Source: Corallochytrium limacisporum Hawaii
Lineage: Eukaryota > Protista > Pluriformea
Assembly: GCA_002811645.1 (NCBI GenBank)
Contig: PDIP01000036.1
Location: 124,001-188,000, forward strand
DNA length: 64,000 nt
Direction of reading: 5' to 3'
Positions 26,452 through 56,478 of the stretch are shown here, one piece after another. Within the stretch, counting starts at the first letter, position 1. Every line of letters starts with the position of its first letter. Below the pieces are notes generated by a model. That model worked only from the letters and a program-made list of their open reading frames with translations. It had not been told where the DNA came from and did no database searches. The position numbers were made by a program, and so were the translations under genes.

Positions 26452-26925
26452 TTAGAGCATGCTCATGTCAAGCTCAAACTTGTTGTCCTCCTTGACGAGA
26501 GCAAGGAACTCATGGTTCTGTGCGGTCTCCTCGGGAGAAGTGAACACCTCATAACGTGACTCAAAGGGAGAGCTAGCAATAGAGGAAGTAAACTCATCTG
26601 TGAGTTTGGGAGATAGCTCAAAGTTGACGGCCTCGGTTGTGGCTGATTCATCGAATGATCTGCGGTGAGAAGGCGGGGCGCGCTTCAAGGCCGCAACCAA
26701 TGCATTGCGAAGAGTAGCATTCTCTTCTTCGAGAACATCAATGCGTTCACGAAGTGCCTGTTTGTCTGTGTTCAATTCTTTAACATTGGCGGAAAGCTCT
26801 TCGATCAGCATCTTCCTGCGCTGGCGGCAACGCGCCGCTGCCTCGCGGTTCTTGGAGCGTTTTGCAGCCTTCTTGGCTTCAATGGCGGACATTTCCACGG
26901 GCGCGAGGGTCTTCTTGGGTGCCAT
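26452..26925 (-). CDS. bZIP transcription factor (Fos/ATF-like basic region); first ATG at 26925 (MAPKK)
   Basis: KRSKNREAAARCRQRRK (N-x7-R) followed by a leucine zipper (L-x6-L-x6-L-x6-L-x6-L); acidic Ser-rich C-terminus. Confidence 0.9.
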   Translation of the reverse strand: MAPKKTLAPVEMSAIEAKKAAKRSKNREAAARCRQRRKMLIEELSANVKELNTDKQALRERIDVLEEENATLRNALVAALKRAPPSHRRSFDESATTEAVNFELSPKLTDEFTSSIASSPFESRYEVFTSPEETAQNHEFLALVKEDNKFELDMSML

Positions 26926-27448: not shown

Positions 27449-30400
27449 TCCCCTTCTTCCCGTTTTTTCAAGCCCCGACCCAGACCAGTCAGTGATGTCC
27501 CAACGCCAAGCCCTTTCTTCCATCCCTCTGGATTTATACGCCCGTCCGCAGGAGTGGTGAATACTCCCACTGCTCACCAACCCTTTTATCTGCTTCCCCT
27601 TTCCCCATTTCTGTCCGCTTCGTCCCCAATTCCCCATTTCGTGAGCAGTGCGGTGGCTAGTGGCTGCTTTAGTGGTGGGGAAGGGGAAAGGGGAAACGGG
27701 ATCCGAAGTGAGAAGGGGACCCTACAAAGCCATGGGTATTGTTCCCGGACTTAGATCGCTTTCCTAGAACACCAGCGGGAATTCCCTTCAGTGTTATCTG
27801 TCTAACTCCGCCTCCACCCACGTCTTGCGGCCCGCACTTAGTGGCTTCAGGATGTGCAAGATGTGCCCGCTGTGTGCGGTGTTTTCCTTGTAGATGCGCT
27901 GCGAATTATTGTACTATGTGAATTGACACCATTCCGCATTCCGATATCGCAACGTTGGCACATGTACTCTGTGGGAGACCGCGAGCTCTTTGCCTGTTGA
28001 GCAGGGTCAGCTACTATCCCGGGACTGAAGAACTGTCTTTAGGGACCTGCCAACTTCATAAGCGGACCATAGCTTTTGGTGTCGGGTTTGCGCAATCCCG
28101 CACGCACTACTCGGGGATTGCTCCCGCGCACCCCCAAAACAAAAACAACACAACGCGGGAGTTTTATCGCTTGATTTGAACGTGAGCAAGCCGATCTCCG
28201 CACGTTTAGCAATTGACCATCCTGCCCACGTTGTGGTCTATCGCAGTCGGCACGGAAAGACCAGGGTCCGCATTCCACTTCCAAAGTGCGATTCTTTCAG
28301 AGCTTCCACATTGGTTTGTTAGTTTCAGCAGACTTCGGACATTAGAAAACAGATGGGTGTTCCGATTCCTAAAGTATGAGGCCGACTGATATCCAATTGC
28401 GGTGGCCACCATCACCGATCTCTCACAGAAAACAGGGCGGCCTAGTGAGCATTGTAAGCAGATCTTAGTTCCAGTAGGTGCCACAGCTGAACATCTGAGG
28501 GAGGAGAAGTCAAGAATTCATGAATTTGCCAATAAATGCCATTCACAATGCATACCAACCTGCTCTTCTCGAGGGTTTGGCGCGCCTTCACAGCCACTGT
28601 TATTTAGTCGAGGCTCTGTCAGCACTTCAGGGTGAAACATTGATGGCGATTTGATGCCAATTTGGGTGATCTTGTACGGCCATGGATGGGCGATAAGACT
28701 CCTTTTCTGATCTGCTTATGCCCTCTTCAAGGGTCGGCGGGGCATCCCACACGTACGCGAATTTGCCGCCAATGTTCGACAAGCCAGTAAGACGAATACA
28801 TGATTCGGAAAGGTGCTCTGTATGTACCGTCTAAGGTCTTTTTTTCTTAAGTTTGGAAACATACACCTGGTAGGCAATATTTTGCTCCATCTCCTGATTC
28901 CGCCTTATGCACCATTTGGTGGAATACGAACCTGCACCGTGTCAAATATGCCGCAAACTAAACTTGAGAAAAAAGGGTGGCGACTGCCGTCCGAACCAGA
29001 AGTGATCTGGACCAACCTGCGTTTACTATCTTGATGTCATCTCGACGAAATACTCTACGCAAGCCGACTCGTGCGTAAGCGGGACTCCTGCTGTGCTACT
29101 CTCAGCCTCCCTTTTTCCACTGGGCACCCGTCCGGACAAGGCGGTGGTAGATGAAACAGCTACTTACCGCCTTTACCATGTCACAGTGTTCGTTTTGGGT
29201 ACGGTGACCTGTATGTTAAAGAGAAACTATGACTTCCGAGGCTCACATACACCGTGGGCTTCGCGTGGGTCACTTTAAGGGCATAGATTGGCTGCATAAT
29301 TGTTACTTGAAGTTGCTGCGGTAGTCGTTTTGCATCATCAGCTCTTACTCGAGACAATTCGGGTGGACAACTTGGCGAGGAAGGAGGACACGGTGGAGTA
29401 ATTGGCACATGAAACCAACGAACAATAGAGAAATCCACAAATTCCAAAGAACGCCTGCCTTCTAAATAGTGTCAAAAACTGACCACCATGTTAACCCTTT
29501 GCTCTTTACCAGGTTTGAAGCATCAGCGTTCACGATGTGCGGTCGATGTCCGAAACTACGACACCCTCAATGCCCAGTGCAGCTCGTCCTCTCCACCGAG
29601 GGACTAGGAAACACTGTAGTTTGAAGTCCCCCGGTTGAGGAAGTCGCCGGTGCGTTGTAGACGAGGTGTATTGATCTCAAGAGTTGCTATCCCTTCGACT
29701 GGCCAAAGTGCCCATAGAAAAGCCGATACCCTATCTGTTCCCATCTCGTCCAAATAGAGATGAATCGGAATCTCCTTCCCACCGCGAGCATGCACTCAGC
29801 ATAATGCACTGGCCATCAGTTCGACGTGTTCTGTTCCACTTCGAGAAGTGATATGGCAAACGTGTGGCACAACATAGAGCCCCCTGCCCAACTGGTCGGT
29901 TTGTATGAGAATGTTGGTCTGTACTAAGCGTTTTCTTGTCCAAGCGCAAGAGTGTCCATTTGTCCACTGCCATTTGGAGTGCGACAAGCCTTTGACACAT
30001 GACAGACAGCTCGTACATCCGCTGTTTTGACCATGCCGACAACTTTTCAGTGGCGACACAAGCTATCTTAAGTCTGCTTTGACATAAACGGGATCTCAAA
30101 TGCAACATCGGGGCTTCGAATGATCGCGACTGTCCGCTCAGTAAGCTTCATATAGAACTAAGTTAAGTCTCTTGACAGCTTTATGGATTTGTTCGACAAA
30201 GGTAATCAAAGAGCAGGGGAGGAAGCCCGGGAATTGTGTTGTATGTCAGCTTTCCGTTTGCGGTGGTGATTTGTTTCCCTTTCTACTTCCTCTCCCGTTT
30301 CGTCGTCCTCGCTTACTTTGGTGACAGCCACTGACAGACGACAGGGTAGCGGGCACGTTTGCTACTATTGAGTATTGGTCTCCAGGACGGTGGGAAGCCC

Positions 30401-33241
30401 GCACCCTGGATGTTTTGGTAGTAGGCCACAACAGTGGACATCACTTCCACAGTCGCGGCGAAATATGTCGAAGGCAATGGACTCCGAGAGAAGTTGTGTC
30501 CCGCCCAAAAAAGTGTGCTATGGGTGGATCAGTTACTTGTAAATTTCATCGGTTCCTGATTGCAAGAACCCAAGTGAAACAATGGCGAATCCTGGCTGGA
30601 ATGGGACATGGGATACTGCAAACCAACTTGTCTCAGCTGAGCCATCAAGTGCACGACTTTGGTTCCAATTGTTAGTACACCGGTGACCGATCCCCCGTGT
30701 TGTACGGTAATGGGGGAAGCACCTCCCGGACGTACGTTATGCCGGCAGCAGTTGGGCGGACCAAGATCAACGGCATCGACCATCTCGAGATATCCAAATG
30801 GAGACGGCAAGCCGCCCAGTTGAATGCGATGCCCACTGAGAGGTGTTCAAGAGGGAGGTCTAAAAATAGAGCCGTTGCAGTTTCATCGCTTTCATACGCT
30901 CCCCCTTTGTCATTGTACTGTGTATGTATACGGCGGCTTCAATTTTAACGAAGAACACTGTTCAGGTCCAATCTATTTCTTTCTTCTCCCCTGTGTTTTG
31001 TACGCTTCATCTCAACATCCTCCCACAGCAGGAGTAAACGAAAAGATATACTTTCATGGAAGTGATTACACCATTCCCCGCACCCGCAAGATCAATTGCA
31101 AACATTTCCCATATAATATGGTTTTCTCTACGAAGCGACGATCCCCAGACATTGACGACAATTTTTGTTACTATAAGCCTATGGTCAAGAGTCTTCCGTG
31201 CTGACGATTCAGGGTCATTTGGGTCATCCAGAGGCAATGAAGCGAGCATCCAACCATAGACAACCCTAGTATTCATGCAGCTAAATGCTCGGTGCAAACC
31301 ATTGGATTCGACATCCTGCAGATCATGTTATCTGCCAGTTAAATCCTCCCAGTGTCCACATGAACGATGGGTGGCAATGGCTTCCGAATGACGGGTATGG
31401 TACCATCCAAAGAATCTCCGCATCCATCGGCCTTGTCCGTCCGGACTTGAGCGGTACTCGTTTCGTCACACCTCCGTAATTCCCCGGGTGTGTTGTGTAT
31501 AAGAAACTTGTGGCCGTTTTCCGTCCTAATGCGCCTCACATACAATCTGTGACAAACAAGACGTCTTGTACAGTATTGTCACAGCGGCCGCTAAAGGGCA
31601 GATCCCCTTCCTTCTTAAACCTCTCGGGGGAATACTTCAGAACAAGTACACGCTTGAGGACATTCGAAACAGCCACCCAGAAAACGAAAGGAGAAGACGG
31701 GGGCGGAGGGGGGAAGAGGTGAGGAACGCCGGACTAGCTGTGCACTTCTTCTTTTTCCACACCGGCTCATGCGGTCATCGCTGTTGGCCTTGGTAAAAAA
31801 ACTACTGCGAATGTTTACCACGTTAGCAACTGCTTCGTGATCAGGACTTTTGACGAAGTGCCATCGATAACCTACTTGGTCACTAGCAGCTGCGGGACTC
31901 TCGAGGACATCCTCGCAGCATGGGGATTCTTGGCGAAGGAATTCAAATATGGAGCGGCTTAGCTTTGAATTCCCTGCAACGCGCGCCTCGTCGACGATTC
32001 CGAGCGACTAACCTGACTGTATATTCCCGCGCTGCCCCCGCCCACTCACCGCTTGCATAGCATCCGAAGTCTTCAGGAAAACGAACCTCCTGGTGTCAGA
32101 GGGAGAGAGAAACTATCTGTCAAATTTTGAAGAAACAAGGGGGACGAGTAAACATTTTTGTACTCGATACGACGACGGTGGTGGTAAGTATGTACTCCTG
32201 AGGCTAAATCTGTAGTCTCCACTTGAAGTGGCTTCGAGGACACAATAGGGGTGCGAGCAGTGGACACCACTCTGTTCAATGACCGCTTGTCGGTGGGCGC
32301 ATGAACCGTAATTCCTTCTCTGACGATTATTGAAGGAACAATCGTCACAGTAAGAAACGGAACGACGAGAAAAGTACACGACAAAGATCTTTATTCTAAG
32401 TGTGCTGGCCTCTAGTTGGTACTGGGTGCCTCAAGCGTTACAATAATCAGGTCGGCCCACCGCCGAGCCTGCATCCTAACATGCAACTGTCCGGGAAATA
32501 CCATTGACGTGAAACGGAAACCTGTAAGATTTCCGGCCCAGCATGAATGTGTACAGGAAGCCAACGTTAATTGAGTGTGTAGAGATCCCGAAATGAAGTG
32601 ACCGGGGTCCCTCCCCTTCATACTCTTTGCACCGGTGCCGACAGAATCGAAATCATAAATCAAATACAATCATTTGCATCAGCAAGTTTTTGGTCATTGA
32701 GTTCTCTGGCCAATACCTAAAATTGAAAATAGTAAGTATAAGTAAATTGAGCAGTCCTCGTTCTAGTCCATTTCGACAAGGCCGCTCTGGCGGGGGGAAT
32801 GGAGTTTGCGCCTTAACGAATTCGCTGCGACACCGAAGGGTAGGGGGGAGGGGGGTTGTGAATGCGAGCGCTTCTACGCTGGCTCTCATTTTTTTTACCT
32901 AGACTTTGGGACCCCTTCCCGCCAATATATGCGCACCAGCTTAGGGGCGCGGGGGTTTCAAAATCTATCGCGTCGAAAGAGCGTTGCCAACAAGACTGGC
33001 TTTGTGTCCAAATGGCCTAAAGGGCAATGGGGAAGGTCGGGTTTGGGTCAGGGAGTATGCCCTCAAGTTCGTGTCTACTGTGTCTGATCATTCCTTTGTA
33101 TCGATGCATATTTATAGTACACAACTTGATGAGTATGTGTACTGTTCTTCTTCATGGAGTCGTCACAGACGGTAAAAATTCCAAGGCAGAAGTATGGCAT
33201 GATTCAATTTGCTAGAGTCGATTAGATTCGCAACAGTGAAC

Positions 33242-36200
33242 ATGTCGTTCGCCATACCTGCCCGAGAGGCAGGTGCTTCGCCTATACTTGTCGTAGATAG
33301 TTCTGCCATGTTGGAGGATATGGGTCTGGCAGATGCTCCTATTGAGAGCCAGCAGATATACGAATACATCCGGAAGCTTTACAGCGCTCGCATCAAATCG
33401 CTGTGTGAGAAACTGGCCAGCTTGACCATGTCAATAGCCTCCGACGAGCTCTTGCAGACTATGGGCTCGCGAACGGAGAGCGCCCAGTATCTTAGTGAAA
33501 GGGCTTTGGAACTTATCCAAACTGCATTCATCAGCGATAGAGAACGGTATATCGAGGACCTTGCTCAGAGGTGTGCCCTGCTCGAGCTTGAACTAGGTCA
33601 CACACAGAGCACAACACAAGCGGCGAATGGTGCAGGCTCCTTTGTATCACCACAAGTGCAAGTGACACAATCTCCCAAAGACACAACTCTTCCTGACAGA
33701 GTGTCGCTGTATCTTGAAAGGATCCTTGTTCAGATTCAGCGAGAGGAAGGACCGGCGATCGGTAAAGCTGAGATTGCTCGGGAACTGCGTCTGTTATCTA
33801 CGGTTGTGCAAGATGCTCGGAAAGTTGAGCTCTTGAGCGATCACATAGGAAGCCTCACCGTCAGTTTAAAAGACAGCTTTTCGCAAAGTGTGCAAAGCAC
33901 TGAACACGAGAGACTGCAAATTTCTGCACTGACAGACGAATTGATGGCCGCGCGATCAGCTAACGAGATCGCGAAAAGCGCTCAGGATTCTCTTCTGGAG
34001 CAAAACAACAAGCTGCAGGGAAAACTCATGGAGAATCACCAGTACTATAAGCAACGGTACGCAGAACAAAAGGAATCACTGCAGCAGAAGGAACGGGAGA
34101 TCGTGCAGCTGAAGGCTGCGCTAAACGGGAGCACAGTAGGTGACTCGATAAAACAAGAGTTTGAGGCTCTGCGTTCAGAGTTTCGTCGGTCTGTGTTCGA
34201 GATTCGGGATCAGTTTGCACATAACCTGAGTGAGGACCACGCCGGAAAGACTAGTAATGACCTCGAGAACATTAGGAAGACTATGCAGTCCTCATTGAAT
34301 AACCTCAACAAGGAAATCCAGGACCTTCGCAAGTCCCGACCAAACCAAGAGTTCAGTCGCGAGATCTCGAGACTGCGCGATGAAGTCAGTAGATCAATCA
34401 CGCAGATTGCGACTTCAGGAGACACTGGTGGGAGCAAACTAGCACATGATGACATAGCGGAGCTCCGAAACACAGTCACACAGTCCCTGCAGAACATCAT
34501 GGATCATGTCCAGGAGCTTAAGTCGTCTTCATCCATGGCTTCACAGCAACGGGCACATATAGAACAGATTCTGGATACCAAGATGACCGCACTTAGAGGA
34601 GAAATGACGCGTTCACTGACTGACCTTGCAACGCTGATGAACACCAGAATAGAGCAAGCTGCCGCTACTGGCATGGATGATCGCTTGATGTCATCCATGG
34701 AAAACATGCTGGCGGAGCATGTTCACTCAATGAGGAGCCAGATGGAGAGCTCTCTGGCCAATGTCAGACAGGAAATGGCTAAGTCATCACAAGTCAACTT
34801 GTCGCAGGCTGACAATGACCAAGTGCTGTATGCTGTTGAGGGTGTCATGCAGAGGGGACTGCATCAAATGCGGGAGGAGTTAGACGCTTCCATTAGCGTG
34901 CTTGCCAAAGAAGTCGATACATTGAAGGCAACCCAAACAGGTTCCCTTCAAAGCATCAATGAAGCGATCGCGACTGCACAAGGACAAGGTCTGCACCTGG
35001 ACGCCCGCATGACCGAAATTGAGCAATCTGCTTCGAATGAAGAAATCAAGCAATTGATCCGGGAGGAAATTTCCTCACTGCAGCAAAATTTCGGTGGCTC
35101 ACTAACAGACCTACAGCGCACTATTGAGAACGTTAAACGCGGTGGTGTGGAAGGAGAAATGTCTAGCATGGAGGAGATTGCACAGTCTCTTCGGGACGAG
35201 CTCAGCGGCCAGATTTCGAACGTCAAGAAAGATTTACAGACCTCACTTTCGCACCTTTCTGCAAACGTCACAGACTGGAAACGAACTCACGAAGACACGG
35301 CACCCGCAGGGGCACAACAAGGGGTTGCAGAGAACCAAATCATGCTGCATCTTGCAGACATCAAGTCTGATATGGAACGTAGCATCACAGACCTCAATCG
35401 ACAGCTACGGGACCTCCAGGAAACAGAAATCGCATTCACGCCACGATCGCGTCCGGTTACCGAGCAGACACTGACAAGTCGTCTGCAGGAGATGGATGTC
35501 ACAGAAGACTTCAAGGCCCAACTCGATGATATGCACTCACTCATCCATGACACTTTCAATGCTGTCATGAAGGAAGTGGCCAAGCCGTCACCAAAGAAAA
35601 CGGACAAGGGTGCTTCCTCTACGCGATCACCACAGCGCCCGATCGCCACCTCACCACCACCAAACCTTCGCACAGTCACTCCAGAAACCAAACGTAGAGT
35701 CAGCAAGGTGAACAGATTGCTGGAAGACCTGATTAACGCTGGCCAGACAGACGAGAAAGATATGAACCAGTCCCTGCTTGACCTACTGGATCTAAAACAA
35801 AATGTTGAAGGCATGAAACGCAAGATGCACATAACTAGGGAAGATGAAAGGGAATATCTCAGCACTTCAGAGCCTGGAGCGGTCATGCATGAAATTACGC
35901 AAGAGCTCTTGGATAATATGGACGAGGTATCCGATCCTGAACTGCGTCACCTCATGACCAAGTGCACTTTGCATTTATCGGAAGTTCTGGAACTTAATGA
36001 TTCCGGGTATGCCAGCGATGATGCCGCTGACAAGACGCGCGACTGCATCAAGACGCTGCAAGAGCTGTCCAGAGTGCTTCTCATCGCCGATCGCAAGGCG
36101 ATTGCCAGCATGGGCTCTCTCCGCAAGTATGCCTTAATTTCCGACATAGAGGCCATCCTTCAATTCTTGCGCAAGGTTATTTCTGCCCACGAGGAGCTTC

Positions 36201-37525
36201 GCGCCGTGAACACCGTGGAACGTGGTACTTCGCCGGTCAGAAATTCTCCACCTCGGGCTATGGCGTCCTCTGCGGTCGGAACCTCGCCTGGTGTTCCGTC
36301 CGTGGTAGCTCCACAAGCCCTTGAGCCATCTGCTTCCACTTTAGCATCAGACAACAAAGCCCGTGAAGAACGCCGGAAACGTAAAATCGCTGAGACGAAG
36401 CTTCTGGAGGTAGCAAAGAAGTTTGAAGAAGTCAAAAATCGCATGAACGAGAAGTCCGCCGTAATCAAGGAGATGCGAACGGAAATGCAACGTCTACGGG
36501 AAGAGGCTGATGTGGAGAAGGAGGGTAGGATTGCCCTTCAGAAGCAGCTTGACCTTCGCGTGGATGAGCTCTTGCAACGCGAGAAGGAGATTGAACAAGT
36601 CCGGAACCATTGTGAGCAAATCGAGGCCCAGCTTTTAGCGTCACAGCGTGGCCTTCATGTGGAGAAGATCAAGTCCAACAAACTTTTGAGCCAGATGGGT
36701 GGCATGGACCCAGGTTTTGACATTGCTGCTCTGAACGCCACCAGAATGCGTTTGCAGAGCATGGAAACTATGGCAAGGCATCGACTGGGCGACAAGGAAG
36801 AGCCTCTAACAAGGGAAGCACGACTTGACCTCTATGCTCGTACAGTTGAGCTCCTCGTCGCGCAAGCGCTGTCGAAGACATCACGTCAGTCTCAGGAAGT
36901 TGGCACGGGTGCCGTTCCAAGTAATACCTCTATGGCATCAACTTCTGCACAGGCAGACACCATGACGTCCACTGAACCCAAGCATTCTCTGAAACAGCTC
37001 GATGACCTTGATCAGCGCTATAAGGACTTGATGGAGACCTCTGGTCTACAATCCGAGCAGGCTTCACAGGATATCGCAGGCAGCCTCATCCGCATCATTG
37101 ATGACTACCGCGGCCTCCTAGAGAACGTCCGTCCGAGCCTCTCTCGCCAGAGCTCGCCAAGTCGCACGAGCAAGGCATCGCAAGGCGCAAGCGCCGCTGT
37201 TCGGCCGGGTCCGTCCGTGGCCGAAGCAGATAGTCTGGCCATGCGCATCCAGAGTCTGGAAGAGGAAATGCAATCTACTCGACACTACCGTAACAATCTG
37301 ACACAAGCTAAGCAAATTATCCGCGCTGCATCCCAGAAAGGAGAGGAAGTACGGGAACTGCGGGCCGCATTGAACCGTTCTCTTCGGGATGTGTCCAACC
37401 GGCCGCCGCCCCAGAGCACCCTCGACACCTCCACGCAACTCGAGGCTGAAACGGAACGCCTCCTTCGCGAGTACCACACTGTCTCGCAGCGACCCGCCCC
37501 ACGGGAGTCAAGTCCCGCCCCATGA
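33242..37525 (+). CDS. Large coiled-coil protein of unknown function with internal degenerate repeats
   Basis: 4.3 kb uninterrupted ORF, E/Q/K/L/S-rich with heptad patterns; no family recognised; first ATG at 33242. Confidence 0.85.
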   Translation: MSFAIPAREAGASPILVVDSSAMLEDMGLADAPIESQQIYEYIRKLYSARIKSLCEKLASLTMSIASDELLQTMGSRTESAQYLSERALELIQTAFISDRERYIEDLAQRCALLELELGHTQSTTQAANGAGSFVSPQVQVTQSPKDTTLPDRVSLYLERILVQIQREEGPAIGKAEIARELRLLSTVVQDARKVELLSDHIGSLTVSLKDSFSQSVQSTEHERLQISALTDELMAARSANEIAKSAQDSLLEQNNKLQGKLMENHQYYKQRYAEQKESLQQKEREIVQLKAALNGSTVGDSIKQEFEALRSEFRRSVFEIRDQFAHNLSEDHAGKTSNDLENIRKTMQSSLNNLNKEIQDLRKSRPNQEFSREISRLRDEVSRSITQIATSGDTGGSKLAHDDIAELRNTVTQSLQNIMDHVQELKSSSSMASQQRAHIEQILDTKMTALRGEMTRSLTDLATLMNTRIEQAAATGMDDRLMSSMENMLAEHVHSMRSQMESSLANVRQEMAKSSQVNLSQADNDQVLYAVEGVMQRGLHQMREELDASISVLAKEVDTLKATQTGSLQSINEAIATAQGQGLHLDARMTEIEQSASNEEIKQLIREEISSLQQNFGGSLTDLQRTIENVKRGGVEGEMSSMEEIAQSLRDELSGQISNVKKDLQTSLSHLSANVTDWKRTHEDTAPAGAQQGVAENQIMLHLADIKSDMERSITDLNRQLRDLQETEIAFTPRSRPVTEQTLTSRLQEMDVTEDFKAQLDDMHSLIHDTFNAVMKEVAKPSPKKTDKGASSTRSPQRPIATSPPPNLRTVTPETKRRVSKVNRLLEDLINAGQTDEKDMNQSLLDLLDLKQNVEGMKRKMHITREDEREYLSTSEPGAVMHEITQELLDNMDEVSDPELRHLMTKCTLHLSEVLELNDSGYASDDAADKTRDCIKTLQELSRVLLIADRKAIASMGSLRKYALISDIEAILQFLRKVISAHEELRAVNTVERGTSPVRNSPPRAMASSAVGTSPGVPSVVAPQALEPSASTLASDNKAREERRKRKIAETKLLEVAKKFEEVKNRMNEKSAVIKEMRTEMQRLREEADVEKEGRIALQKQLDLRVDELLQREKEIEQVRNHCEQIEAQLLASQRGLHVEKIKSNKLLSQMGGMDPGFDIAALNATRMRLQSMETMARHRLGDKEEPLTREARLDLYARTVELLVAQALSKTSRQSQEVGTGAVPSNTSMASTSAQADTMTSTEPKHSLKQLDDLDQRYKDLMETSGLQSEQASQDIAGSLIRIIDDYRGLLENVRPSLSRQSSPSRTSKASQGASAAVRPGPSVAEADSLAMRIQSLEEEMQSTRHYRNNLTQAKQIIRAASQKGEEVRELRAALNRSLRDVSNRPPPQSTLDTSTQLEAETERLLREYHTVSQRPAPRESSPAP

Positions 37526-37619: not shown

Positions 37620-39540
37620 CGAAACTGGAACCCTCCCTCCGCAGGCTTCGCCCCCCTTGCGCGGCTCCTCTCAGATCCCATTTTCTCAGATGGCGGTCAC
37701 ATGGGGGGGGGGGAGCCGGGGACCCCTCCCCACCAGAGCGGTTGTGGATACGATAGTATCAGCGATCTGGTTACATAACACATCCAGCTGTCTCTTTACC
37801 ATGGTCGACACCGCTGCGGTCCATATCGAATAAATTTGTTTCCCTATGATGTGTGCATGTTGGTAACGACTAATACACAATAACACACGCGCGCACTCAC
37901 TCACACAAACACACACACACACACACACTCTCTCTCTCTCTCTCTCTCCCCCGCGCTCTCACATATACACGCACATGCACACCCACACAACACATACGCA
38001 CATGCACCTACTTCTTTCACAAACAGTTCGGCCACTGTTCTCCCTCAGTCCCTTTGAGTTCTTTGCTCCTTGGCCTTCCAATGGTTTCCTTTTCCCGTAC
38101 AACTGCAGCCCAGCCGCCCTCCCCACATGGCATCCACACCGGTCCCTGCGTCCTCCCGCATAGCCCGTACCCCTTGAGTACAGCCCGCGGACGAGCAGGT
38201 GCCGGATCATACCCGTACGGCGCGCTTTTAACCCGGGGTAAGGCCCAGTGCCAGGGCGCCAGCAAAACTTTGTAAGTTTTGCCTCGCTACGTTTTGGCCA
38301 GTGGGACGCTTTCCGGTGTAGTCGGCTACGGATCCAGAGCGGGGCGCCGCTGCTGCAGCCCTTGGTGAGCAGGTCCGTGTGGTTTTTTTTTGGTTTTCTA
38401 AAGGTTGGCCTTGTATTAAAGGTAGACTCTTTCAAAAAATAGCAGCAAATTTGCCCTCCTCCCGTCCCCCGCTCCCTGCCAGAGCAAGGAAGGCCCCTCC
38501 CCGGGGGTGGTGGCCGGCCGCGAAGCAGAGAGAGAGAGAGAAAAAATTCCATGGCCTTCGCAGCCTGGCATCCCATTCTTCTCCTCCTCCGGGCCTATTA
38601 CACCGTGCGCAAAGACGGAGCGAAGACAAAATACACAGGAAAGCATTGGAGGCGAGGCGAGAATGACAACAGACACACACACACACACAAAGAGCCGTGA
38701 CGCCCTGCTCGCACACACCGACACCCCCGGGTGGCTCGTGGTCCCCCGGGGCCGCACGGGTCCGCGGTACTGGATCAGTGGGAAAACATTTCCCGGGCTT
38801 TTACTCCAAGCCACAAGGAAAATCAAGCAGTAGAACTGGCTCCGCTGGGCCCCCTCCCCATCTCCCTCCCTCGCTCGGTGGTGCGATAGGTTAAACACCA
38901 CCGCGGGGACCCCCCCCGGGGGAGGCGCCCGCGCAAGAGTGTGTTGGTATAATAAAGCCATAGCGTTCCCTCTCTTATTGTCCCCTGTGGCGGTGGAGTT
39001 TCACCTCTTTGGCCTGACCAACACCACACACCCCCCCCCCCTTCCCGTCAGCCAGAGGTGGACCGGGAAAGGAGACGAAAGGGGGCCCAAAGGGACGGCT
39101 CCCCCGCCCGGGTTTGGGGGGGGGGGGGCATGTGAGAGACTCCACCAAGCGAAAGGTTGAAGAGCAAAGCCCAGAAAGCTCAAAAAGCTTGGAGCTGTGT
39201 GGCCTTCCCTTTCTTTCCTCCTCCCCCCCGGGGGCCTCCCCTGCTCGCTCTTAATATTTTGCCCCTCATCATCCTTCCCGTCGTTTCCTTTCGGCTGTTG
39301 GACGAGTGGATTCTGTGGCGGTTTCTGCAGCCCCCGCGGTGTTTTCCATAATCTTTCTTTGCACCGCAGCGCGGGCTTCGAAGGATTTTTCCATCGTTGG
39401 AATGAAAAAAAATGGAATCGGTCTTTCTCATCGTTTGCTTGCTCCTGCGTGCCCTGCGTGTGGTGTGTGTGTGGGGTCTGTGCCGTGTGTGCCCTGTTTA
39501 TTGAGGGCGGCATCATCGTGACCGGGACACAACGGGACCG
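37620..39540. promoter_or_regulatory. Large low-complexity island upstream of GIGYF
   Basis: Multiple G/C/A/T runs, CCCCGGGG palindromes and microsatellites, followed by an ApT-rich leader. Confidence 0.5.
37883..37950. repeat. Compound (CA)n(CT)n microsatellite
   Basis: Directly visible. Confidence 0.9.
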
Positions 39541-50819: not shown

Positions 50820-51782
50820 ATGGCAGATTCACTTACAGAAATATTCAATTGCACAGACGGCCTTCGCGCCGCGTTTCCGGAGCAGGACTCTGGACAATTT
50901 GTTCCGCCAGCGATGAGCCGGACCCTCATAAAGGACGAAGTGACTTTAAAGAAACGGGGTATGACAGACTATGGACCAGACAAGGAACTGTACTCATTAT
51001 GTCGAAAGATTCTTGATGTGCAAGTAGCACCTATTAGGAAATCAAGCTCAGGACTCATTAGCGGCCCAATGCTTAGCGAGGAGGTGCTGGCTATGAGACC
51101 GATGTTCACGGACGAAGAATGGGAGGAGTGGCTTGAAAAGCAAAAGCGTTTCTCAGCAATCTTAGCAGAAGAAGAGGACGAGCTTTCACAACAGCAGGAT
51201 CGTTTGTGGGAAAGTGCATGGATGGAACAGAAAATGCTCCAGAATCGACTGGAAGCAGCGGAACAATTCTTAGAACGGGAACAGAGATTGTTGCGTGCAC
51301 AGCAACGACGCATGAGCGCTGAGCGCCGTGAGGCTCTGCTGCACCCTGACGATGAAGAAGAGGGGAAGACAAATCGGTTCTACGGAGATGATCAATTCAC
51401 TAAAGAAATGCGCGAAAAGGGTCTTCGTTACAAGACTGAATCTGAAGAGAGAGCGATTCGGTATGAAGATCTGCCTCCCGTCCCAGAGGACTTTTCAGTC
51501 TTGCTGCAAAGTACTGCCACGCTATCAGTTGGATCACCGATTGCAGAAGACGTTGACATCGATGACAATGTCATGGACAATGTGACCAAGAGTAGTTCTG
51601 CCATGTATGTCGATGAACAAGTGCGTGATGCTATGAGAGGCTCTCCAATGGCCGCAAAGGCACGCCTTCTGAACGCGACGGACCACCTTGATACACCAGG
51701 AAGTGACGACGAGGCTGAAGACCTGCATCTGTCCGGTACCCTCCCACAAGTAAACGGCAACAGCAAAGGCATATTTGCATAA
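50820..51782 (+). CDS. Hypothetical protein with central coiled coil and acidic C-terminus
   Basis: 320-aa ORF with protein-like composition, downstream of a promoter-type island and convergent with TBP-A. Confidence 0.75.
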   Translation: MADSLTEIFNCTDGLRAAFPEQDSGQFVPPAMSRTLIKDEVTLKKRGMTDYGPDKELYSLCRKILDVQVAPIRKSSSGLISGPMLSEEVLAMRPMFTDEEWEEWLEKQKRFSAILAEEEDELSQQQDRLWESAWMEQKMLQNRLEAAEQFLEREQRLLRAQQRRMSAERREALLHPDDEEEGKTNRFYGDDQFTKEMREKGLRYKTESEERAIRYEDLPPVPEDFSVLLQSTATLSVGSPIAEDVDIDDNVMDNVTKSSSAMYVDEQVRDAMRGSPMAAKARLLNATDHLDTPGSDDEAEDLHLSGTLPQVNGNSKGIFA

Positions 51783-51873: not shown

Positions 51874-52734
51874 TTACTCCTGCTGGGCAGCTGGTGGCTC
51901 ATATTTCCGGTACTGCTGCAAAGCAGGGAAGATAAGCTCAAAGGCATCGATAATATCTTTCTCATATTTCGCACCGGTCAGTACAACCTTGCCAGATCCG
52001 AAGACAAGGAGGGTGACCTTTGGTTCCACCATCTTCCACACCAATCCGGGAAACACCTCTGGTTCGTAGGATGCAATCTGGTCATTGTCCTCGGCGCTCA
52101 TCTTCTGCAACTCGATCCTGAAACCAAGATTAACAGAGCCGACAATATTCTGCACCTTGAAACTTGAATAATCTGACACTTTAGACATCTTCAGAGCCTG
52201 GCAGATGGCCTTTGTAAACTTCTTGGCACCAAGAATAGCATCTTTCTCGCTCTTTGCGCCCGTAACTACTAGCTTACCGGTTGCGAAAATAAGAGCGGTT
52301 GTCCGTGGCTCTCTTTGTTTCATAATTACAGCAGCAAAACGCTTTGGGTTGTACTCTGTGTTCTTACACTTCTGTGAGATCATGCTCAGGTCTAACTTCT
52401 TATTCAGATCCAGTGTAGCCACAATATTCTGCATTTGTGGTACCAACCCTGAAGGATGTTCCTTGAAGTCAACCTCTGCTCGTGTGTCTGTTTGAACCGA
52501 ATATGCTTGGTCATAAAATTGTTGCGCAGGAGTTTGTGGAATTACGCTTTGGGCATAATAAGCACCACCCGGAGTGGGAGCAGCAAAATCTGTCGGTGGG
52601 TTAAATGGCGTGGGAGCCGCAAATGAACTGTACGCCGGATGCGCTGGCGTTGGCGCCGAAAAGTTCTGACCACCAAACGGCGTCGGCGCATTATATGGCG
52701 TCGGCGCCGCAAATGGATTCCGGAAACTCGCCAT
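51874..52734 (-). CDS. TBP: TATA-binding protein paralog A (N-terminal APTP repeats)
   Basis: [61 protein letters not shown]; both TBP repeats present. Confidence 0.93.
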   Translation of the reverse strand: MASFRNPFAAPTPYNAPTPFGGQNFSAPTPAHPAYSSFAAPTPFNPPTDFAAPTPGGAYYAQSVIPQTPAQQFYDQAYSVQTDTRAEVDFKEHPSGLVPQMQNIVATLDLNKKLDLSMISQKCKNTEYNPKRFAAVIMKQREPRTTALIFATGKLVVTGAKSEKDAILGAKKFTKAICQALKMSKVSDYSSFKVQNIVGSVNLGFRIELQKMSAEDNDQIASYEPEVFPGLVWKMVEPKVTLLVFGSGKVVLTGAKYEKDIIDAFELIFPALQQYRKYEPPAAQQE

Positions 52735-53784
52735 TGTTATGGTCTTGAGAAATTAATTTTCCCGTGTCTGTTTGCAATTTTTGGTCTTACGAGTTTGACA
52801 TGAGCTGACGTTTCTAATCTGAACCTTTGAAACTGCCAAATTGTCTTTTCTTTTTTATTTTCAGTGTTCTTAGATTCCCTCCAATAATTCTTTAAAATTG
52901 AGTATATAGTCGCGTAACTTTCTTTAATAATTCCCTTGAACTAAAACTGAGTCACTTTTAAAATGAATCGCACAAAGCCAAGTCGTTGGTGCCGAACAAA
53001 AAATACTTGCTGGCACTTCCCAATTGTGTATGCTGTCAACGACCGACACGATTAACTAGCTCACATTTTCACTTTCGATATTTATTTTCTGTACGTTCCC
53101 ATAGGTACCTGGAGATGCCAATGGCATGACAATGAGACTATGGCACGACCTCAGGGGCTGCGTCCTCCACCGGTCCTACAGCAAGTCAATCAGAGCCGCG
53201 CCAACCAGCCCTGCTGGTCACATGGGAGGGGCCCACTCTAGCCATAGTCAATGTAAGCAAATTTTCATCTCTTGTACTACGAAGGCCAGGCTCGGAGATA
53301 AGGAACAACTGTTGAGGGGAATGTTCTCGAAGTCATACATTCAGTATCGGAAAGAACAAGGCTTTTGGACTCAAGACGTATGCCGGGCACCCAAAACGGT
53401 CGCGGCAGGGGAATATACATACGGAAGGGTTTGGAAAATCTTGCGAGAAGGCTGTCCTATATGGTAGCTAGAGCCGAAATTCCCGCCCAAAAATTTACTA
53501 CCTTGCTGCGGGCCAAGAGTTCAGCACCTGGGGTCCACTCCAAGGGGGCGGGTCGGCGGACCCGGCTTCGCGGGCGAGTCACACGGACATTGTCTTCAAG
53601 TTGATTAAGCTGAGGGTATTTGGAAGACGAAACATCCGCTAAAATTTATATCTCGCACGTATAAGCAATTTGACAGAGAATAAATGCAACCACAATGACA
53701 TAGAAGACCACTGAGGGAAGCGCCTTGATTTGTTCAGTAATCATGGTGTAGGTCAGTTTTGTTTATTGAGAAAACTGTTTTAAA

Positions 53785-54546
53785 ATGTCCCGAGAAATCA
53801 GTAGGCCGTCTACGCGACGAGCTGCTCGGCCGATTATTTCCGAAGCCACCGATGGGAGCCGCAGACGAGTTCCATCAGCCAGCACAGGGAGGGCAATCAA
53901 AGAGACCAGACGTCGTGGCCTTCCGGAGCCGGCTGAAGACCTTGTAGAACGCGACAATATATACACAGGGATCACAGAGGAGGACCGCCATCCGTCAGGT
54001 TTAAGGCCCGTCAAGCACAATGTTGTAGCAACAGTAGCCTTAGGAGATTCTCTGCCACTCATGCAAATCGCGATGCGAGTGAGAAATGCAGAGTATAGTC
54101 CAAAAAGGTTCGCCGCGGTAATCATGAAGCTGCGTGCGCCGAAGTGCACTGCATTGGTCTTCGCATCAGGGAAGATGGTAGTCACAGGTGCAAAAAGTAT
54201 AACGGAAGCGAAACGAGCTGGAATGAAGTTCCGAAAGATCATTCAGAAGACCTGCCCCAACATCGACATCAAGTTCCGCGACTTTACAATTCAAAACATG
54301 GTGGCCTCAGCGGATGTCAGGTTTCCCATTCGTTTGGAGGGCATTTCAGGCAGTCATCAGTCAGCGTTTTCAACTTACGAACCGGAGGTCTTCCCGGGCC
54401 TCATCTATCGCATGTACGACCCTATCGTGACACTTCTTATCTTCGTGTCCGGTAAAGTCGTCTTGACCGGTGCAAAGACAGACGAATCTATCGAGGATGC
54501 GTTTGACAAAATCTATCCACTCCTCAGTGAATTCCGAAAGCTCTAA
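53785..54546 (+). CDS. TBP: TATA-binding protein paralog B (Arg-rich N-terminus)
   Basis: [73 protein letters not shown]. Confidence 0.95.
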
Positions 54547-55288: not shown

Positions 55289-55951
55289 ATGGAGTACTCA
55301 ACAGCAACTGAACCTCAGGACTGGATGTCCAATGAGGTAATGACCGGTACCACCATTATGGCAGTGGAATTCGCCGATGGTGTAGTTATTGGAGCAGACT
55401 CTCGTACTTCTATGGGTTCATACGTTGCCAACCGCGTCTCCGATAAGTTGACACACATCACCGACAACATCTACTGTTGCCGATCGGGTTCAGCGGCAGA
55501 CACTCAAGCGCTGGCCGATATGGTACGCTATTATCTTTCGATGCATTCCATTGAGCTGGGCGAAGCTCCTTTGGTCAAGACTGCAGCCTCTATGTTCCGT
55601 TTGTTGTGCTACAACAATCGTGAGCGTCTGACCGCTGGTATCATTTGTGCTGGATGGGATCCTGAAAACGGTGGCTCCGTCTACAACATACCTCTGGGAG
55701 GCATGTGGGTGCGTCAGCCTTTCGCTATTGGAGGAAGCGGGTCCGGATACATTTACGGATTCTGTGATGCAAACTACAAGAAGGACATGAGCAAAGAGGA
55801 GTGTCTCGAGTTTGTCCGCAACGCTGTATCGCTAGCCATGCATCGTGATGGTTCCTCTGGTGGTATCATTCGCCAGGCCGTCATCACCAAGGATGGTGTT
55901 GAGCGCCTCACCACTCTTGGAAATGAGCTGCCCAAGTGGCACTCAAACTAA
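55289..55951 (+). CDS. PSMB6: Proteasome subunit beta type-6 (beta1, caspase-like); alternative ATG at 55283
   Basis: Propeptide, then G|TTIMAVEF (catalytic Thr), [44 protein letters not shown]. Confidence 0.97.
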
Positions 55952-56109
55952 GAATACGATCTTCCGTAGTAACAATATCATCACCACAATTGATAAACAA
56001 TACATAGATTCAACTTAGAAGTCATGAATTGAGATGGACGTAATGCCTATGATATATGCTGATGTTTGGATTCTGTGTTTGGAATGGACGTCGTACCCAG
56101 CTATCATGT

Positions 56110-56478
56110 TCACCACTTGTGCTCGGGATGTTGCTTATATTTTACATATGACTCCTTGTCAAAAGCTGATATCTCAGTCTCGTTTTCAACCCCACAGGAA
56201 GCCAGAGTAGCATCCATCCTAATGGTCAGCTCCTCATCTTTGTCTAAATTGATGATAGGATTGCTAGTTTTTGCTCCATGTGCTATGTGGTGGATTTTGA
56301 GGGTGTCAATCTTGACATTCTTGTACGGCCCGAACCCTGGTTTAGTCTGAATCCACTCTTTAGCCTGATCCAAGAGAGCCTGCCCCGTCGTATTCTCCAA
56401 ATCTATATTTTGTAAAACAATGTTTTTGAAGGTACGGTACTCAAAGCTCTTGATCACACGCACAGTCAGGACAGCCAT
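56110..56478 (-). CDS. C2orf76: UPF0538/C2orf76-like ubiquitin-fold protein
   Basis: LTVRVIKSFEYRTFKN, DTLKIHHIAHGAKT.N.IINLD, GVENETEISAF, YK.HPE.KW. Confidence 0.88.
   Translation of the reverse strand: MAVLTVRVIKSFEYRTFKNIVLQNIDLENTTGQALLDQAKEWIQTKPGFGPYKNVKIDTLKIHHIAHGAKTSNPIINLDKDEELTIRMDATLASCGVENETEISAFDKESYVKYKQHPEHKW

What the first reader, a model, noticed from the sequence alone, without database searches (positions are those of the whole stretch)
51874..54546. Head-to-head pair of divergent TBP paralogs with complementary lobe divergence
Seen: two TBP genes divergently transcribed about 1050 bp apart. Both keep the four DNA-intercalating Phe and two Asn. They share derived residues (HPSGLxP; FAAVIMK where canonical TBP has [14 protein letters not shown] versus EPELF; VTLL), which points to a lineage-specific inverted duplication. 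A is nearer canonical in the first repeat (PQMQNIV, LDL, YNPKR, REPRTTALIF) but diverged in the second (VNLGFRIELQKM, GLVWKM, archaeal-looking LLVFGSGK). B shows the reverse (PVKHNVV, LPL, YSPKR; but [25 protein letters not shown]). The N-terminal tails are unrelated. Established: TBP paralogs in animals (TRF1, TRF2, TBPL2) split promoter or polymerase classes, and the two lobes carry different partner surfaces (TFIIA/Brf versus TFIIB). Inference: an independent subfunctionalisation of the basal transcription machinery, perhaps by polymerase, by island versus TATA promoters, or by life stage.
Basis: partly seen in the sequence, partly recalled or inferred. Interest (0 to 1): 0.75.

Follow-up and report, generated by a model that had tools for sequence, protein, structure and literature searches.

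The report
Head-to-head pair of unequal TBP paralogs

Summary
The two genes are real: intronless TBP genes A (52734-51874, minus strand) and B (53785-54546, plus strand), start codons 1050 bp apart, cores 49% identical, all four Phe, both Asn and both TFIIB-binding Glu kept. Third codon positions are saturated, so the split is old. Two runs guessed to be RNA cover both genes, and 4 of 5 strain differences are silent. The shared residues are no more than unrelated fast TBPs share (11 of 45), and trees neither support nor reject A+B as sisters. Divergence is not complementary: A departs equally in both repeats (18/60, 19/59), B less (13/60, 9/59); only repeat 2 differs. A has replaced the C-lobe surface where yeast SAGA and NC2 mutants map (R171E, G174K, F182I); B keeps it. 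Best reading: B is the general TBP and A a specialised TRF-like copy outside SAGA/NC2 control (inferred). Choanoflagellates have a second TBP with a similar change, either by convergence or from an older duplication (about 20%). A third TBP elsewhere cannot be excluded.

The parts
51874..52734 (-). TBP paralog A, 286 aa, no introns; the more diverged copy
   Evidence: exact sequence in a public protist proteome set; model matches the TBP saddle at about 1.4 A rmsd
52462..52734 (-). A's N-terminal tail, about 90 aa, Ala/Pro-rich with three AAPTP repeats, predicted disordered
   Evidence: low pLDDT
52075..52119 (-). A's rewritten C-lobe loop and helix H1' (yeast positions 169-182: P169R, R171E, E173Q, G174K, H179N, F182I, plus a one-residue insertion)
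   Evidence: 6 of 6 scored positions changed, matched by 1 of 310 other TBPs
52735..53784 (.). 1050-bp spacer, inferred shared divergent promoter region; 57% GC core at 53401-53600 between 36% GC flanks next to the genes
   Evidence: no remnant inverted repeat beyond the coding homology
52735..53045 (-). Candidate 5' leader of A (about 310 nt): contigs of both runs extend from the gene to 53045
   Evidence: contigs cannot show a true start, weak hint only
53785..54546 (+). TBP paralog B, 253 aa, no introns; C-lobe near canonical, N-lobe changes Q68H, D81P, N95S, E129I, R137M
53785..53982 (+). B's N-terminal tail, about 66 aa, Arg-rich, unrelated to A's

Best explanation
These are two intact, long-separated TBP genes set head-to-head, likely from an old local duplication and likely both transcribed from the shared spacer, in which B likely remains the general TBP while A likely became a specialised TRF-like copy working outside SAGA and NC2 control. 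Shown: both keep the TATA-intercalating Phe/Asn set and the two acidic residues that bind TFIIB/Brf; A alone has replaced the C-lobe H1' surface; A keeps the N-lobe basic signature as lysines while B loses one position (R137M). Inferred: both still bind DNA and recruit TFIIB or Brf1; A is not loaded by SAGA or restrained by NC2 in the usual way and so would act in a dedicated complex, with Brf1 at Pol III genes like insect TRF1 or with TFIIA at a promoter subset like vertebrate TBPL2. Which of these is not decidable here.
For: Intact frames and fold. Old split under constraint: codon positions 1 and 2 are 61% and 67% identical, position 3 only 27% over 187 codons, fourfold sites 10 of 44. Contigs of two runs guessed to be RNA cover both genes; of 5 coding differences in run X2, 4 are silent and 1 is L46V in B's tail. 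The divergence is gene-specific: best hits are 57-58% (A) and 64% (B), whereas eRF1 in the same window is 80-83% identical to animal proteins. One-sided divergence in repeat 2, p=0.021. A carries R171E itself, G174K and F182I; yeast R171E and G174E are reported to weaken Spt8 and Spt3 interaction (PMC10136053, passages) and F182V is NC2-defective (PMC1896006, passages). TFIIB/Brf-binding E186 and E188 and the N-lobe basic positions come from PMC7221094 and were scored.
Against: No partner protein of this organism was seen; SAGA or NC2 may have co-diverged or been lost. [quoted passage not shown] In PMC10136053 the R171E strain showed no defect in the assay used. TAF11/TAF13 is reported to bind the concave face (PMC5690282), so A's change does not by itself imply exclusion from TFIID. 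B is not canonical either (22 changes at 119 conserved columns; references have a median of 0 in each repeat), including R137M at a position where human R235E abolishes basal transcription. RNA status of the runs is a guess, X1 may be the window's own source, and five SNPs are few. A third TBP elsewhere could not be excluded (no genome). Trees do not recover A+B as sisters.
Confidence: 0.45

Rival explanations
1. Ancient holozoan paralogy (about origin; compatible with the mechanism above): A and B descend from a duplication older than choanoflagellates, A matching their second TBP and B their main one, and the head-to-head layout is the relic of that event.
For: Without prompting, trees placed A with a Choanoeca TBP (744 of 1000 unconverged bootstrap trees) and B with Microstomoeca (651) or Savillea (316) TBPs. 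By eye, one Monosiga TBP in the PMC7221094 alignment shares B's N95S, I160M, K167R, S184T and the other shares A's C164V, K167G, basic 169, acidic 171, G174K, I206V. Choanoflagellates are known to have two four-Phe TBPs (PMC4180970). Best LG tree has these pairings.
Against: AU tests do not reject A+B (p=0.45 LG, 0.43 C20; 0.68 with A+B tree 8.2 lnL better than a quick free tree). In quartets all 5 of 5 unrelated long branches put in place of Choanoeca gave the same preferred topology. Choanoeca ranks only 11 of 82 for sharing with A, level with Microstomoeca at 12, and is 47.5% identical to A and 46.2% to B. The signature sets were chosen after seeing the sequences. Human TBP has N at 95, so that match is likely convergent. 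H1' loss recurs in unrelated divergent TBPs.
Confidence: 0.2
2. Reciprocal subfunctionalisation: each copy kept one lobe's partner surface and lost the other's, so both are needed.
For: At chosen surfaces there is a hint: A keeps the four basic N-lobe signature positions as Lys but loses H1'; B keeps H1' but has R137M.
Against: Counts are not reciprocal: repeat 1 has 10 A-only against 5 B-only changes; the repeat-by-copy test gives p=0.43 and 0.50 at conserved columns, and p=0.047 over all columns only because A is higher in repeat 2. A also has K133I, a changed helix H1 and a three-residue insertion at the end of H2 in the N-lobe; B keeps K133, K138, K141, K145.
Confidence: 0.15
3. Both genes are accessory paralogs, and a conserved third TBP elsewhere in the genome does the general work.
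For: Both copies are far more changed than the TBPs of two ichthyosporean-type references (81-83% mean identity to references against 51-66%), while other genes in the window are slow.
Against: No third copy in the 64 kb window. B keeps a near-canonical C-lobe. No direct evidence either way.
Confidence: 0.12
4. Redundant drift: both copies do the same general job, and their changes reflect relaxed constraint and co-evolution with this lineage's own partners, kept for dosage.
For: All core DNA and TFIIB contacts scored are kept in both; adjacent divergent genes may be co-expressed.
Against: Redundant copies seldom persist to synonymous saturation (general knowledge); A's changes cluster on one surface (6 of 6 scored positions).
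Confidence: 0.13

Closest known systems
Canonical eukaryotic TBP (yeast Spt15, human TBP)
   Same: Two PF00352 repeats, saddle fold (TM about 0.95 by target length for A's model), four Phe, two Asn, E186/E188, P191.
   Different: A has 37 and B 22 changes at 119 normally conserved columns; both carry R105K, L189V, V203T; two copies side by side.
Insect TRF1 (Drosophila)
   Same: TBP paralog about 63% identical to TBP that still binds TATA and is mostly bound to Brf1 for Pol III (PMC3142196, passages): a model for how A might work.
   Different: TRF1 is insect-specific and arose separately; no Brf1 link was tested here.
Vertebrate TBPL2 (TRF3/TBP2)
   Same: TATA-binding paralog that works with TFIIA outside TFIID (PMC7755920, abstract).
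   Different: Restricted to vertebrates with a highly conserved core; A's core is much more changed.
TRF2/TLF (TBPL1)
   Same: Fast-evolving TBP paralog.
   Different: TRF2 has three of four Phe altered and is bilaterian (PMC4180970); A and B keep all four.
Second TBP of choanoflagellates (Monosiga A9UYM2, Choanoeca P0310)
   Same: Four-Phe duplicate in a unicellular holozoan with a similarly rewritten H1' surface.
   Different: It has many changes A lacks; orthology not established; I found no functional study and did not check its gene arrangement.
Entamoeba histolytica TBP and TRF1
   Same: Two TATA-binding paralogs in a protist with different regulation (PMC5842622, abstract).
   Different: Described as closely related; unrelated lineage; arrangement not checked.

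Membership tests
TBP family (PF00352) | Two TBP repeats above the curated cut-off | tested here: met
   194 and 198 bits, two stretches each
TBP family (PF00352) | Saddle fold | tested here: met
   A only: core pLDDT mostly 96-98, 1.4 A rmsd to TBP; B was not folded
Canonical TATA-binding TBP | Four intercalating Phe and two Asn | tested here: met
   both copies
Canonical TATA-binding TBP | Acidic C-lobe stirrup (E186, E188) for TFIIB/Brf | tested here: met
   positions from PMC7221094
Canonical TATA-binding TBP | N-lobe basic signature (R90, R137, R141, K145) | tested here: inconclusive
   A: all four Lys (145 depends on alignment of an insertion); B: R137M, other three basic
Canonical TATA-binding TBP | C-lobe H1' surface (P169, R171, E173, G174, H179, F182) | tested here: not met
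   Not met by A (6 of 6 changed); met by B
Canonical TATA-binding TBP | Binds TATA DNA and supports Pol I, II and III | not testable with these tools
   needs biochemistry or complementation
TRF2/TLF (TBPL1) | Three of four TATA-contacting Phe altered | tested here: not met
   against the definition in PMC4180970
Insect TRF1 | Insect-specific clade | tested here: inconclusive
   No sequence labelled TRF1 was in my trees; the window does not look like an insect genome (intronless long genes); a fly TBP-like protein did not group with A
Insect TRF1 | Mostly bound to Brf1, needed for Pol III | not testable with these tools
   no partner sequences of this organism available
Vertebrate TBPL2 | Vertebrate-specific, core highly conserved with TBP | tested here: not met
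   cores are 57-64% identical to their best hits
Choanoflagellate second TBP class | Groups with Choanoeca P0310 to the exclusion of B | tested here: inconclusive

The most novel reading that the evidence does not exclude
A and B are survivors of a two-TBP system older than choanoflagellates: a general TBP plus a SAGA/NC2-independent TBP with a rewritten C-lobe, shared with the uncharacterised second TBP of choanoflagellates and still in its original head-to-head arrangement here. Core-promoter specialisation by TBP paralogs would then predate animals.
Probability: 0.2. Interest if true: 0.72.

Novelty: new member of a known kind. Interest (0 to 1): 0.4.

Why it matters
TBP is among the most conserved eukaryotic proteins, and its paralogs have been tied to animal multicellularity. 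An old pair in a likely unicellular animal relative, one copy carrying a natural version of a yeast SAGA-interaction mutation, offers a compact test of whether TBP copies split jobs by shedding the SAGA/NC2 surface, a change that recurs in other divergent TBPs. Duplicate TBPs as such are already known in choanoflagellates, a placozoan, a ctenophore, insects, vertebrates, cestodes and Entamoeba, so the finding extends a known theme.

Tried and rejected
Whole-genome count of TBP genes: no genome held; earlier scan notes gave nothing relevant. Sequencing runs: no holder is on record as RNA. Neither run's contigs cover 53046-53678, and both leave long stretches without long ORFs empty in a control region; this looks like RNA, but missing cover proves nothing, and contig depth was not used to rank expression. 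TATA consensus count in the window: 5 against 4.99 expected, uninformative. Spacer repeats: nothing beyond short chance matches and coding homology. Close relatives: none above 58% (A) or 64% (B) and among 80 metagenome loci; 0 of those 80 loci held two TBP genes, but only 7 of the 81 stored loci reach 5 kb. Viral origin: one 19-residue match only; a word-based scan, so weak. Atlas: B could not be searched; the Choanoeca protein returned only general TBP clusters. Trees: the careful 55-row tree did not finish and its quick stand-in left A and B apart; the bootstrap run was cut off unconverged and its first parse was faulty (redone); one script timed out. Pseudogene or assembly artefact: rejected (intact frames, saturated silent sites, both genes in two runs). 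TRF2 membership: rejected. Link to the vertebrate Tbp-Psmb1 head-to-head synteny (PMC1800895): rejected, the neighbouring proteasome gene is the PSMB6/Pre3 type and lies in tandem. No complex prediction was run because no partner sequence from this organism was available. Paper searches with no report of this pair; in-paper searches with no hits; one search had nothing on TBP paralogs.

Full report
What is there. The window holds two complete, intronless TBP reading frames: A on the minus strand at 52734-51874 (286 aa) and B on the plus strand at 53785-54546 (253 aa), with 1050 nt between the start codons. Each has two PF00352 repeats and both exact sequences are in a public protist proteome set. 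The cores are 49% identical and the tails do not align. An AlphaFold2 model of A has a confident core and matches solved TBP at about 1.4 A rmsd; B was not folded. No third TBP lies in the window; no genome was available.

Organism. Long genes in the window have no introns. eRF1's named hits among the top 120 are animals at 80-83%, apart from two over-long models at the top of the list, one plant and one animal. The neighbouring proteasome subunit scores higher against mammalian than yeast orthologues, and an IQGAP-type gene is present. I infer a unicellular holozoan; the species was not established. Because these genes are slow, the low identity of the TBPs (best hits 57-58% for A, 64% for B) is specific to them.

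Age and constraint. Over 187 aligned codons the first and second positions are 61% and 67% identical and the third 27%; fourfold sites match in 10 of 44. The split is old and the proteins are under selection. Two public runs hold the region; neither is on record as RNA. Their contigs cover both genes without gaps, and both end at 53045 upstream of A, a weak hint of a long leader. X2 differs from the window at 5 coding positions in the two genes: 4 silent, 1 in B's tail; the unrelated gene next door has 4 silent of 7. X1 matches the window exactly there and may be its source. Transcription is likely, not shown.

The shared-residue claim. Against 197 reference TBPs (199 cores with A and B; five over-long plant models and eRF1 were left out), H59 and P60 are majority states. 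Four rare shared changes remain: I63L, R105K, L189V, V203T. In 310 other TBPs (the 197 plus 113 complete cores of 145 new representatives) they occur in 17, 7, 8 and 7 sequences, and none has more than two of the four, but that set is defined by A and B themselves. In a neutral test A and B are identical at 11 of 45 sites where both leave the consensus, the mean for 82 unrelated divergent TBPs (0.24 and 0.22). B shares four or more rare states with 4 of 74 divergent sequences, and A shares up to nine. V203T is one of the three changes in the relaxed-specificity yeast mutant TBPm3, positioned at the second base of the TATA box (PMC1636458, passages); both copies keep L205 and neither has I194F, so changed specificity is only a lead.

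Trees. A quick 55-row tree left A and B apart. With 40 rows including 21 mostly divergent ones, a tree holding A+B together scored 8.2 log units better than the quick free tree, AU p=0.68. An unconverged LG bootstrap gave A+B in 0 of 1000 trees, A with P0310 in 744, B with P0317 in 651 or P0236 in 316. These three are choanoflagellate proteins (20 of the divergent hits were looked up, chosen partly for closeness to A or B). Seven topologies on 30 rows: A+B is 6.6 (LG) or 2.8 (C20) log units below the best and not rejected; only a fully nested arrangement was rejected, under C20. Quartets favour A with Choanoeca and B with Microstomoeca (A+B p=0.019 LG, 0.118 C20), but 5 of 5 unrelated long branches gave the same preferred shape, 2 of them rejecting A+B. 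The origin is unresolved. Adjacency favours a local inverted duplication; the choanoflagellate likeness keeps an older one open at about 20%.

The lobe claim. At columns at least 90% conserved A departs at 18 of 60 in repeat 1 and 19 of 59 in repeat 2; B at 13 of 60 and 9 of 59. A-only against B-only changes are 10 to 5 (p=0.30) and 13 to 3 (p=0.021; 15 to 6, p=0.078, at the 80% threshold). The pattern is asymmetric, not complementary.

Surfaces. Both copies keep N69, F99, F116, N159, F190, F207, E186, E188 and P191. E186/E188 are the TFIIB and Brf contacts, and R90, R137, R141, K145 the N-lobe patch used by TFIIA, TAF1, Brf1 and Mot1 (PMC7221094, parts 2-5 of the text and the numbering table). 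A has Lys at all four N-lobe positions but K133I and a three-residue insertion at the end of helix H2; B has R137M. A alone has replaced the loop and helix H1' of the C-lobe: P169R, R171E, E173Q, G174K, H179N, F182I. Of 310 others, 215 have none of these six positions changed, 5 have five and 1 has six; those include the Choanoeca protein, a fly TBP-like protein and an archaeal-looking one, so the loss recurs. In yeast, R171E and G174E are reported to weaken Spt8 and Spt3 interaction and F182V is NC2-defective.

How it likely works. Shown: two constrained TBPs with intact DNA and TFIIB/Brf contacts and one-sided loss of a regulator surface. Inferred: B is the general TBP; A escapes SAGA loading and NC2 inhibition and acts in a dedicated complex, with Brf1 as insect TRF1 does (PMC3142196, passages) or with TFIIA as TBPL2 does (PMC7755920, abstract). 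Against this: Spt3 also binds the stirrup that A keeps, and Spt8 is not described outside lower eukaryotes; TAF11/TAF13 is reported on the concave face; B is itself changed; no partner was seen. I put the whole reading at 0.45.

What is known. Duplicate four-Phe TBPs are reported in two choanoflagellates, a placozoan and a ctenophore and were judged not to be TRF2 precursors (PMC4180970, passages). Monosiga's two copies are in the PMC7221094 supplement and were compared by eye only. Entamoeba has two (abstract) and cestodes two (PMC13134418, listing only). I found no paper on this pair or on head-to-head TBP paralogs in seven searches; the library lacks most subscription papers, and figures and picture supplements could not be seen. 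A term was a genus guessed from recall. Verdict: a real, old and unusually diverged TBP pair, a new member of a known kind; interest 0.40.

Noticed in passing
window 55331-55951 (+): A proteasome beta subunit gene lies about 0.8 kb downstream of TBP B. Vertebrate Tbp is head-to-head with Psmb1, but this gene is the PSMB6/Pre3 type and in tandem, so likely coincidence. Contigs begin at 55407 or join from the next gene, so the true start codon is uncertain.
   Followed up: yes
window 50820-51782 (+): 320-aa ORF with no Pfam match, converging on TBP A with only about 90 nt between stop codons; covered by contigs of both runs; 4 of 7 strain differences silent.
   Followed up: partly
window 33242-37525 (+): 1427-aa ORF with no Pfam match, covered by one long contig of run X2.
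   Followed up: partly
window 55407-56478: Single contigs in both runs span the proteasome gene and run on into the convergent DUF2340 gene, which could mean overlapping 3' ends; a contig across two genes shows no single transcript.
   Followed up: no
window 27500-32800 and 38100-39400: Long stretches with no long ORF in an otherwise gene-dense, intronless window; one lies upstream of a bZIP gene (26452-26925, minus strand).
   Followed up: no
proteins P0310, P0284, P0221, P0316, P0349: Divergent TBPs from a choanoflagellate, a fly and unnamed sources have also replaced five of the six scored H1' positions, suggesting a repeated route of TBP specialisation.
   Followed up: partly
window 52462-52734 (-): A's tail has three AAPTP repeats in an Ala/Pro/Phe-rich stretch; PXT repeats are noted in the N-terminal domains of TBP-family proteins (PMC3142196 figure legend).
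   Followed up: no
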